From IMG/VR virus record IMGVR_UViG_2698536369_000016: a stretch of 5,095 nucleotides of DNA; one strand, 5' to 3'. This document shows, one piece after another, positions 62 to 796 of the stretch; position 1 is the first letter of the stretch; every line of letters begins with the position of its first letter. Made by a program: the position numbers and the translations under genes. A model generated the notes under the pieces. That model saw only the letters and a list, made by a program, of their open reading frames with translations. It had not been told where the DNA came from and made no database searches. The DNA is from a virus. Lineage: Duplodnaviria > Heunggongvirae > Uroviricota > Caudoviricetes.

Positions 62-115
62 TCTGTTTACCTCTTTCTCAGGGAGTTTAGTCTCCAGGAT
101 TCCCGGGGCGGTTCA
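1..115 (-). mobile_element. IS3-family insertion sequence (IS629/IS1203-like), left terminus and start of orfA; element continues beyond the window
   Basis: Bases 1-115 are the exact reverse complement of 4981-5095. The terminus reads TGAACCGCCCCGGG on the minus strand (IS3-family TG...CA type end), followed by an AGAGG Shine-Dalgarno and an ATG opening [20 protein letters not shown], which I recognise as the IS629-type OrfA N-terminus. Confidence 0.8.
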
Positions 116-796
116 GGCCGCTTTTTCGATCTGGCAGGTACCTTTGATTTTAGGCGTCGAGCCGCGAATGGATTTTGGCCATACAGAGCCCTCAATACGC
201 TTATCCCCCAGCAGGGTTGGCGAGCCCTCTTTTTCGACATCCGGCTCGAACGAGGAAAGCTCGTCATAGCAGACCACGTCCACGGATTTTTCACGGTAGT
301 TTTTGGCGGCTGCACCGCCCAGGCACCAGAAACCGACGCCCGATGAAAAGCGTTTCAGCGTGAGAGTATTGTCACGATGTTTACGACCCAGCCATGGGGA
401 AAGGTCTTTCAGGCATGGCACGTTCCGAATCGTCGCCTCCACGTGAGACTTCATAAAATCTTCAGCGGCAGAATCCGTGGGCTGAAAAAGCAGACTGTTT
501 CGGGATTTATGCTCAATAAAATACCCGCCCCCCCCCAGCAACATCTTTGTATAGCCAACACGGGCAGATTTAATCAGGTTAACCGTGCGAACCTGGTCGT
601 TACCCATACAGTTCATAATGGCGATCTGGAATGGCAGCGTTTTCCATTCTCCCTCACCATATGAAGATTCTTTAGGCAGATAATAATTTTGATCAGCCCA
701 TTCAACTGCCGTCATTGGTACAACCCTGACCAGAGGCTGCAGCGCAACCGAAACGGCAGCCATCATATTATTCAGTTGTTGCTCTGATATATTCAT
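113..796 (-). pseudogene. A: terminase large subunit (lambda gpA-like), N-terminal 227 codons, truncated at the IS junction
   Basis: Translation MNISEQQLNNMM...TAVEWADQNYYLPKESSYGEGEWKTLPFQ...KSARVGYTKMLLG...WCLGGAAAKNYREKSVDVVCYDEL...GDKRIEGSVWPKSIRGSTPKIKGTCQIEKAA is collinear with the N-terminal ATPase region of lambda gpA. The frame ends at TGA (113-115), which is the first three bases of the IS terminus; a full gpA is about 640 aa. True ATG is at 796-794; the longer six-frame ORF to 853 is an upstream extension. Confidence 0.85.

What the first reader, a model, noticed from the sequence alone, without database searches (positions are those of the whole stretch)
113..796. Terminase large subunit truncated, with its stop codon donated by the IS terminus
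The gpA-like reading frame runs 227 codons and ends at TGA 113-115, which is the terminal TGA of the IS end. The gene therefore encodes at most the N-terminal third of a ~640-aa terminase (part of the ATPase domain, no nuclease domain). Nu1 upstream is intact. A truncated gpA fragment co-expressed with intact Nu1 could still bind cos without cutting.
Basis: partly seen in the sequence, partly recalled or inferred. Interest (0 to 1): 0.5.

Follow-up and report, generated by a model that had tools for sequence, protein, structure and literature searches.

The report
IS-interrupted prophage terminase gene
A jumping gene (an IS629/IS1203-type insertion sequence) has landed in the large terminase gene of a lambda-like prophage in an E. 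coli draft genome, leaving a 227-residue stub that ends on the IS's own first three bases; this is an ordinary way for prophages to decay.

Summary
The minus-strand ORF 796..113 encodes 227 residues. They align without gaps to lambda gpA 1-227 (70% identity). The stop TGA (113-115) is the first three bases of an IS3-family (IS629/IS1203-type) terminus. I fixed that terminus independently from IS copies at other sites. The stub keeps Walker A, Walker B and the catalytic Glu179, but only about 73% of the Pfam ATPase domain. It lacks the lid subdomain, the whole nuclease domain and the C-terminal part that binds the prohead. Nu1 is DNA-identical to the gene in uninterrupted prophages, and cos looks intact.

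The window is an entire 5,095-bp draft contig (CYBM01000078.1). Both ends stop 115 nt inside inverted copies of the same IS. So the window cannot show whether the 3' two-thirds of gpA survives beyond the IS. The second IS removes the first five codons of the holin gene.

Both IS ends read inward as TGA, so one insertion in three gives an immediate stop. The "donated stop" is therefore expected, not special. The junction is absent from 5,426 complete E. coli genomes, so it is a private, probably recent event. The idea that the stub binds cos without cutting is untested and mechanistically imprecise. Verdict: an ordinary IS-generated pseudogene, of low interest.

The parts
1..115 (-). Left-end (IRL) 115 nt of an IS3-family IS629/IS1203-type element. 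The terminus is at 115 and the orfA ATG at 59-61. The transposase runs in the same direction as gpA'. The contig ends inside the IS.
   Evidence: 97.4% identical to the end of the annotated 'IS3-like element IS1203 family transposase' copy in L001, and 93% to the 1310-bp copy in L003. Terminus defined by the L003 and L001 copies with their target-site duplications. ATG at IS position 55.
113..115 (-). TGA stop codon of the truncated gpA frame. It is also the first three bases of the IS terminus (TGAACCGCCCCGGG).
113..796 (-). gpA' : 227-codon 5' fragment of a lambda-type terminase large-subunit gene, plus the stop. It keeps Walker A (residues 76-83), Walker B with E179 (172-179) and RGST (211-214). 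It lacks the end of the ATPase domain, the lid, the nuclease domain and the C-terminus.
   Evidence: The start matches the annotated start of the intact 1929-bp orthologues.
528..536 (.). C9 run (G9 in gene sense) encoding Gly-Gly at residues 89-90, where the closest intact orthologues have Val-Val. This is a natural allele, not damage specific to this contig.
   Evidence: The 61-bp stretch is 100% identical in 194 complete-genome records. Other database fragments with GGGG continue past residue 227.
768..1277 (-). Intact terminase small-subunit (Nu1) gene, 169 aa. Its 3' end overlaps the gpA' start by 29 nt.
   Evidence: Pfam Phage_Nu1 at 1e-18. DNA identical to the WP_000235436.1 gene in L002. 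The C-terminal half is 46% identical to lambda Nu1; the N-terminal DNA-binding part is not alignable.
1325..1423 (.). cosB-like region with three copies of CATGTCCGGTT: 1325-1336 and 1355-1365 direct, 1413-1423 inverted. These are presumed Nu1-binding R elements.
   Evidence: The layout relative to cosN parallels lambda R1/R2/R3 (inference; PMC4856287 for lambda).
1428..1472 (-). cosN right half and adjacent I2-like segment, 45/45 identical to lambda bp 1-45. The 12-nt cohesive end GGGCGGCGACCT lies at 1461-1472.
4789..4980 (-). 5'-truncated class II (P21-type) holin gene. Codons 1-5, including the ATG, are replaced by IS sequence. The breakpoint is ambiguous within 4980-4982.
4981..5095 (+). 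Second copy of the same IS left end (IRL), exactly the reverse complement of 1-115. Its transposase points away from the segment. The contig ends inside the IS.
   Evidence: ends identical.

Best explanation
An IS629/IS1203-type IS3-family element transposed into the large terminase gene (a gpA orthologue) of a lambda-like prophage, exactly after codon 227. The IS terminus begins with TGA and happens to lie in frame. Translation therefore stops at the junction, and the product is gpA residues 1-227 with no foreign tail. The stub retains the region that in lambda binds Nu1 (the first ~48 residues; my own knowledge, Frackman 1985 and Wu 1988) and the P-loop core. It lacks the last quarter of the ATPase domain, the lid subdomain that partners the Walker A arginine, the whole cos-cutting endonuclease domain and the prohead-binding C-terminus. 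It is a loss-of-function pseudogene. This prophage cannot cut cos or package DNA with its own terminase (inferred). A second, inverted copy of the same IS removes the start of the holin gene. The late region is therefore hit twice, and the prophage is best read as defective and decaying. Shown: the identities, the junctions, the motifs retained and lost, and the intact Nu1 and cos. Inferred: loss of function, and that the insertion is recent.
For: The frame and stop are confirmed. The fragment aligns gaplessly to lambda gpA 1-227 at 70% identity. Pfam finds a partial GpA_ATPase match in the fragment (profile 4-184 of 247). In the intact orthologue it finds ATPase 48-293 plus nuclease 323-601. 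At the junction, homology to uninterrupted prophages (99.9%) ends at base 116 and the IS terminus starts at 115. The IS termini and the 3-4-bp target duplications were defined from independent copies. Motif positions in the fragment come, with lambda positions from PMC6379665 Table 1 (WA KSA-R79-VGYS, WB VAGYD-E179, lid 327-364). The endonuclease is C-terminal and the C-terminus is needed for prohead docking (PMC4856287, PMC7229814). The junction is also seen in a second assembly. IS629 splitting genes of lambdoid prophages is well documented (PMC4587872), and other genomes show IS copies elsewhere in this same late region (L001, L003, L007).
Against: Nothing contradicts the disruption. There are limits. 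The contig ends inside the IS, so the other IS junction, the target-site duplication and the fate of the 3' 1.25 kb of gpA were not seen. No expression or packaging data exist. The two assemblies that show the junction may derive from the same reads.
Confidence: 0.93

Rival explanations
1. This is not a simple insertion. An IS-mediated deletion or inversion has removed or relocated the 3' two-thirds of gpA. The 4.9-kb S'-R-Rz-perC-cos-Nu1-gpA' block would then be an isolated remnant bounded by two inverted IS copies, cut off from the head genes and possibly from the late promoter.
For: Both contig ends are IRL ends of inverted IS copies, a layout that allows inversion by homologous recombination. 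An IS-associated deletion in the same region exists in O157:H7 PV15-279, where an IS abuts a pseudogenised gpA and a truncated lysozyme gene. An exact look-up of the expected C-terminal product starting at M234 found nothing, which is weak evidence.
Against: Two independent simple insertions explain the data equally well. The negative look-up is uninformative, because it needs an exact sequence and the same start call. The consequence for the 227-aa product is identical.
Confidence: 0.35
2. The stub is a functional protein. By keeping the Nu1-binding N-terminus it would sequester the small subunit, or sit on Nu1-cos complexes. That would act as a dominant-negative inhibitor of packaging by this or related lambdoid phages.
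For: The fragment keeps the N-terminal region and is in the native overlapping arrangement with an intact Nu1 gene and an intact cos. Late transcription can read through an IS629 inserted upstream in a late operon (PMC7430833). Proteins that target TerS to redirect packaging are known in PICIs (PMC6739421).
Against: The ATPase fold is cut internally at profile position 184 of 247 and the lid is missing, so stable folding is doubtful. cos recognition is a Nu1 property and the cosN-contacting domain is absent (PMC4856287, PMC2366019). The junction is private to one isolate: it is absent from 5,426 complete E. coli genomes and from GTDB representatives. That shows no sign of retention by selection. 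The in-frame stop is a 1-in-3 chance outcome.
Confidence: 0.04
3. The junction is an assembly artefact: a chimeric join between a prophage contig and a repeated IS in a short-read assembly.
For: The window is a short-read draft contig that ends in a repeat at both sides. E. coli genomes carry several near-identical lambdoid prophages and many IS copies (a median of 6 matching places per genome).
Against: The join falls exactly at the true IS terminus, as expected of transposition and not of a random chimera. A second assembler (Logan) reproduces the junction. The other contig end shows the same precise terminus at the holin gene.
Confidence: 0.02

Closest known systems
Bacteriophage lambda terminase large subunit gpA (TerL; Pfam GpA_ATPase PF05876 + GpA_nuclease PF20454)
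   Same: Residues 1-227 are collinear with lambda gpA and 70% identical. The Walker A, Walker B/E179 and RGST positions are the same. The gene sits in the same place, overlapping the 3' end of Nu1 downstream of a cos whose cosN half is identical to lambda's.
   Different: Only 35% of the protein is encoded. The end of the ATPase domain, the lid, the endonuclease domain and the prohead-binding C-terminus are missing. Residues 89-90 are Gly-Gly instead of Val-Tyr (lambda) or Val-Val (closest orthologues), which is a natural allele.
IS629 / IS1203 insertions in lambdoid prophages of EHEC/STEC (e.g. stx2::IS629; IS629 splitting phage genes in Stx2a phages)
   Same: The IS type is the same: 1310 bp in related copies, TGAACCGCCCCGGG termini and 3-4-bp target duplications. 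The consequence is also the same, a prophage late gene split or truncated (PMC4587872, PMC7430833).
   Different: This insertion site (gpA codon 227/228) was not found in any of 5,426 complete E. coli genomes or in GTDB representative genomes. Here two inverted copies bracket a 4.9-kb late-region block.
Defective or cryptic lambdoid prophages of E. coli with damaged packaging genes
   Same: Loss of an essential morphogenesis function while neighbouring genes stay intact: Nu1, the lysozyme, Rz/Rz1 and a PerC-family regulator.
   Different: Nothing substantive. Whether the rest of the prophage is intact cannot be seen from this contig.

Membership tests
Lambda-type terminase large subunit (gpA/TerL) | GpA_ATPase domain (PF05876) above the Pfam gathering score | tested here: met
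   123.1 bits against a cut-off of 25.6, E=2e-35. Only profile positions 4-184 of 247 are covered.
Lambda-type terminase large subunit (gpA/TerL) | Walker A (KSA-R79-VGYS) and Walker B with the catalytic Glu (VAGYD-E179) | tested here: met
   KSARVGYT at 76-83 and VDVVCYDE at 172-179. Lambda motifs from PMC6379665 Table 1.
Lambda-type terminase large subunit (gpA/TerL) | Lid subdomain of the ATPase (lambda residues ~327-364) | tested here: not met
   The ORF ends at residue 227. Lid position from PMC6379665.
Lambda-type terminase large subunit (gpA/TerL) | C-terminal endonuclease (maturation) domain, PF20454 | tested here: not met
   No hit in the fragment. The intact orthologue has it at 323-601.
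Lambda-type terminase large subunit (gpA/TerL) | C-terminal prohead/portal-binding segment | tested here: not met
   Absent because of the truncation. Its role is described in PMC4856287 (Aam42).
Lambda-type terminase large subunit (gpA/TerL) | Gene order cos - Nu1 - A, with overlapping Nu1/A reading frames | tested here: met
   cosN at 1461-1472, Nu1 at 1277..768, A' at 796..113, with a 29-nt overlap.
IS3 family, IS629/IS1203 group | Terminal inverted repeat beginning 5'-TG (here TGAACCGCCCCGGG), matching annotated copies | tested here: met
   Window 115..1 and 4981..5095 match the IRL of the annotated IS1203-family copies in L001 (97.4%) and L003 (93%) from base 1 of the element.
IS3 family, IS629/IS1203 group | Element of about 1.3 kb with orfA/orfB and a programmed -1 frameshift | not testable with these tools
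   Only 115 nt of each copy lie in the contig, so just the orfA ATG and 19 codons are visible. Related copies are 1310 bp and annotated with a programmed frameshift.
IS3 family, IS629/IS1203 group | 3-4-bp target-site duplication flanking this particular copy | not testable with these tools
   The other junction lies outside the contig. Duplications of 4 bp (GTAT) and 3 bp (GTT) were seen for the L003 and L001 copies.
Terminase small subunit Nu1 | Phage_Nu1 domain (PF07471) and full length relative to orthologues | tested here: met
   67.9 bits against a cut-off of 30. DNA identical to the 169-aa gene of uninterrupted prophages.

The most novel reading that the evidence does not exclude
The 227-residue gpA stub, co-translated with intact Nu1, is a stable protein that titrates or poisons small-subunit/cos complexes. 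It would interfere with packaging by co-resident or superinfecting lambdoid phages that share this Nu1 specificity. That would make it an accidental, IS-created anti-packaging factor, loosely analogous to PICI proteins that target TerS.
Probability: 0.03. Interest if true: 0.5.

Novelty: already known. Interest (0 to 1): 0.08.

Why it matters
It matters little beyond annotation. The ORF should be labelled as an IS-disrupted terminase pseudogene and the prophage as packaging-defective. The holin gene is also hit, so the prophage is probably lysis-impaired as well. This affects predictions of whether the prophage, and the PerC-family regulator gene it carries, can be mobilised without help from another phage's terminase. 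It also shows that a 'stop codon donated by an IS' is the expected outcome for one insertion in three with this IS family. Finally, contig-end repeats in draft assemblies hide the other half of such events.

Tried and rejected
1. I looked for the same arrangement in complete E. coli genomes. The whole-window search gave apparent 98% hits (H1-H5), but these were joined pieces, and all of them have a full-length gpA with IS copies elsewhere.
2. Short queries spanning each junction found no contiguous match in 5,426 genomes.
3. An exact 30-mer of the gpA-IS junction was absent from GTDB representative genomes.
4. I tried to find the missing 3' part of gpA in the same assembly by exact look-up of the product expected from the first internal Met (M234), using three orthologue sequences. 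None is on record. This is uninformative, since it needs 100% identity and the same start call.
5. I suspected that the Val-Val to Gly-Gly change (G9 run) next to Walker A was a sequencing artefact or post-inactivation decay. I rejected this because the same allele occurs in 194 complete genomes and in fragments that extend beyond residue 227.
6. No solved structure matches the fragment by sequence.
7. I did not run structure prediction. It would not decide whether an internally cut ATPase domain is stable, and an alignment for it would have needed an expensive search.
8. The alternative TTG start at 853 (246 aa) was rejected, because ATG 796 matches both the lambda start and the annotated start of the intact orthologues.

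Full report
**What the window is.** The 5,095-bp window is an entire contig (CYBM01000078.1) of a draft E. coli assembly, GCA_001284545.1. Bases 1-115 are the exact reverse complement of 4981-5095. Both are the left-end 115 nt of an IS3-family element of the IS629/IS1203 type. So the contig runs from inside one IS copy, through 4,865 bp of lambdoid prophage late region, into a second, inverted copy of the same IS. Pfam identifies the genes on the minus strand in order: a P21-type class II holin (5'-truncated), a lysozyme, Rz with embedded Rz1, a PerC-family regulator, Nu1 and a GpA_ATPase fragment. A small DUF3950/YlcI gene lies on the plus strand.

**Check of the observation.** Translating 796->101 on the minus strand gives 227 sense codons and then a stop at 113-115. 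BLASTP against lambda gpA (NC_001416) aligns residues 1-227 to 1-227 without a gap, 70% identical, E=1e-120. Uninterrupted versions of this prophage region exist in about 200 complete E. coli genomes at 99.8-99.9% identity. They match the window from base 116 to 4982 and carry a 1929-bp (642-codon) large terminase gene whose start maps to window 796. In gene sense the window reads ...ATCGAAAAAGCGGCC|TGAACCGCCCCGGGAATCC, while the intact gene reads ...GCGGCC|AACGAGTCGGCG.

**The IS terminus, fixed independently.** I did not rely on memory for the IS end. In L003 a 1310-bp copy of the same kind of IS sits between Nu1 and ylcI, flanked by a 4-bp duplication (GTAT, window 1594-1597). It begins TGAACCGCCCCGGGAATCC. 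In L001 another copy has a 3-bp duplication, GTT. The IS terminus in the window is therefore base 115 (and 4981), and the stop TGA 113-115 is the first triplet of the IS.

**Is the donated stop remarkable?** No. Both ends of this IS read inward as TGAACCGCCCCGGG. Whatever the orientation, one insertion in three puts TGA in frame at once, and in the other two frames a stop follows after 9-53 codons.

**What the stub contains.** Published lambda motif positions (PMC6379665, Table 1) are Walker A KSA-R79-VGYS, Walker B VAGYD followed by the catalytic E179, and a lid subdomain at 327-364. The fragment has KSARVGYT at 76-83, VDVVCYDE at 172-179 and RGST at 211-214. On the intact orthologue Pfam places GpA_ATPase at 48-293 and GpA_nuclease at 323-601. 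The fragment reaches only profile position 184 of 247 of the ATPase model. So the ATPase domain is cut internally. The lid is absent; according to PMC6379665 it partners the Walker A arginine. The endonuclease domain and the C-terminal prohead-binding segment are entirely absent. The endonuclease is the C-terminal domain, and even a 5-residue C-terminal deletion (Aam42) blocks docking on the portal (PMC4856287, PMC7229814). The fragment therefore cannot cut cos, cannot dock on proheads, and is unlikely to be an active ATPase. These are inferences from the known domain functions.

**A difference I followed up.** The fragment differs from the closest intact orthologues at two adjacent residues, Val89-Val90 -> Gly-Gly, just after Walker A. 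This creates a G9 run (window 528-536). It is not damage or an artefact. The same 61-bp stretch is 100% identical in 194 complete-genome records, and other database fragments with GGGG continue beyond residue 227.

**Surroundings.** Nu1 (1277..768, 169 aa) is DNA-identical to the gene in uninterrupted prophages. Its C-terminal half is 46% identical to lambda Nu1, while its N-terminal DNA-binding part does not align. That suggests a cosB specificity different from lambda's. The cos region looks intact. Window 1428-1472 is 45/45 identical to lambda bp 1-45, including the cohesive end GGGCGGCGACCT. Three copies of CATGTCCGGTT, two direct and one inverted, lie where lambda has R1, R2 and R3. At the other contig end the second IS replaces the first five codons (MEKIT) of the 68-codon holin gene, including its ATG. 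Apart from gpA' and the holin, the coding differences from the intact prophage are one conservative change in the lysozyme (I51L) and a nonsense change at codon 36 of a 37-codon hypothetical ORF.

**How common is this?** Neither junction is present as a contiguous match in any of 5,426 complete E. coli genomes. The junction 30-mer is absent from GTDB representative genomes. The exact 227-aa protein is on record only from this contig and from a 1,210-bp Logan contig of run ERR137786. That contig carries the same junction and may be the same isolate. The event is therefore private and probably recent, and nothing suggests the stub is being maintained by selection.

IS copies at other positions in the same late region are common. 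There is one upstream of the holin gene in L001, one between Nu1 and ylcI in L003, and one abutting a pseudogenised gpA and a truncated lysozyme gene in O157:H7 PV15-279. The literature documents IS629 as a main driver of variation in lambdoid prophages, splitting phage genes (PMC4587872).

**Mechanism and rivals.** The best explanation (confidence about 0.93) is plain insertional inactivation: a loss-of-function pseudogene in a prophage that is defective for packaging and, through the holin hit, probably for lysis.

What cannot be decided from this contig is whether the 3' 1.25 kb of gpA lies just beyond the IS or has been deleted or inverted away. The first case would mean two simple insertions. 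The inverted IS pair would permit the second, and I rate it about 0.35. An exact look-up for the expected C-terminal product found nothing, but that is uninformative.

cosB binding belongs to Nu1's own N-terminal domain, and cosN contact belongs to the missing C-terminal domain (PMC4856287, PMC2366019). The fragment could at most be tethered through its N-terminus. The ~48-residue Nu1-interaction region is from my own knowledge of Frackman et al. 1985 and Wu et al. 1988 and was not checked here. The truncated ATPase fold may not even be stable. One point does favour possible expression: an IS629 inside a late-operon gene did not abolish transcription of downstream late genes, including a terminase gene, after mitomycin C (PMC7430833).

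An assembly chimera is unlikely (about 0.02). The join is exactly at the true IS terminus, and a second assembler reproduces it.

**Comparison and verdict.** The ORF is a fragment of a bona fide lambda-type TerL gene. It meets the ATPase-motif and synteny criteria and fails the lid, nuclease and C-terminal criteria, so it should be filed as a pseudogene fragment and not as a terminase. The interrupting element meets the terminal-repeat criterion of the IS629/IS1203 group. Its length, frameshifted transposase and target duplication cannot be tested within the contig. The phenomenon is already known and routine, and interest is low (0.08). The most novel reading not excluded is an accidental dominant-negative packaging inhibitor, with probability about 0.03.

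Noticed in passing
window 1-115 and 4981-5095: The window is a complete draft contig (CYBM01000078.1). Its two ends are exact inverted copies of the same 115-nt IS left end, so a 4.9-kb prophage block is bracketed by two inverted IS copies with both left ends (IRL) facing inward. The orientation of the block in the chromosome, and what lies beyond the ISs, cannot be seen. Recombination between the copies could invert the block.
   Followed up: partly
window 4789-4995 (junction at 4980/4981): The second IS replaces codons 1-5 (MEKIT, including the ATG) of the 68-codon P21-type class II holin gene. Databases annotate the remnant as a 61-aa 'holin' starting at GTG 4974 (CTU22488.1 / WP_053884716.1). 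The late lysis cassette is thus hit as well as the terminase.
   Followed up: partly
window 1986-2300 (-): An intact 104-aa PerC-family transcriptional regulator gene (Pfam PerC, 3.8e-44) lies between the lysis genes and cos. It is identical to WP_001303878.1 of the uninterrupted prophages. It may be a Pch-like virulence regulator cargo gene within the IS-bracketed block.
   Followed up: no
window 768-1277 and 1325-1423: The C-terminal half of Nu1 resembles lambda Nu1 (46% identity), but its N-terminal DNA-binding part does not align. The three cosB-like repeats (CATGTCCGGTT) differ from lambda's, while the cosN half is identical to lambda over 45 bp. This suggests lambda-type cohesive ends with a different packaging specificity.
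   Followed up: partly
window 528-536: A C9 homopolymer (G9 in gene sense) encodes Gly89-Gly90 directly after the Walker A motif, where the closest orthologues have Val-Val and lambda has Val-Tyr. It is a widespread natural allele (194 complete-genome records, many of them O157:H7).
   Followed up: yes
window 59-115 (-): gpA' and the left IS's transposase gene point the same way. The gpA' stop lies 54 nt upstream of the orfA ATG, so late-operon read-through transcription would enter the transposase gene in sense orientation. Whether this affects transposase expression is unknown.
   Followed up: no
L007 (NZ_AP018488.1) 1870-5459: In O157:H7 strain PV15-279 an IS3-family copy abuts the 5' end of a frameshifted large terminase gene on one side and a truncated lysozyme gene on the other. 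This is an IS-associated deletion of exactly the Rz-perC-cos-Nu1 stretch that is retained in the window.
   Followed up: no
L003 7481-8790 (maps to window 1594-1597): A 1310-bp IS3-family copy with a 4-bp target duplication (GTAT) sits between cos/Nu1 and ylcI in strain Z1323HEC0422. L001 has another copy upstream of the holin gene with a 3-bp duplication (GTT). This late region is a recurrent IS target.
   Followed up: yes
window 3240 and 2402: Relative to uninterrupted prophages, a T/C difference at 3240 turns codon 36 (Trp) of a 37-codon hypothetical ORF (3234-3347, minus strand) into a stop. A 1-bp length difference lies in an A-run at 2402 within an A-rich intergenic stretch. Both are probably inconsequential.
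   Followed up: partly
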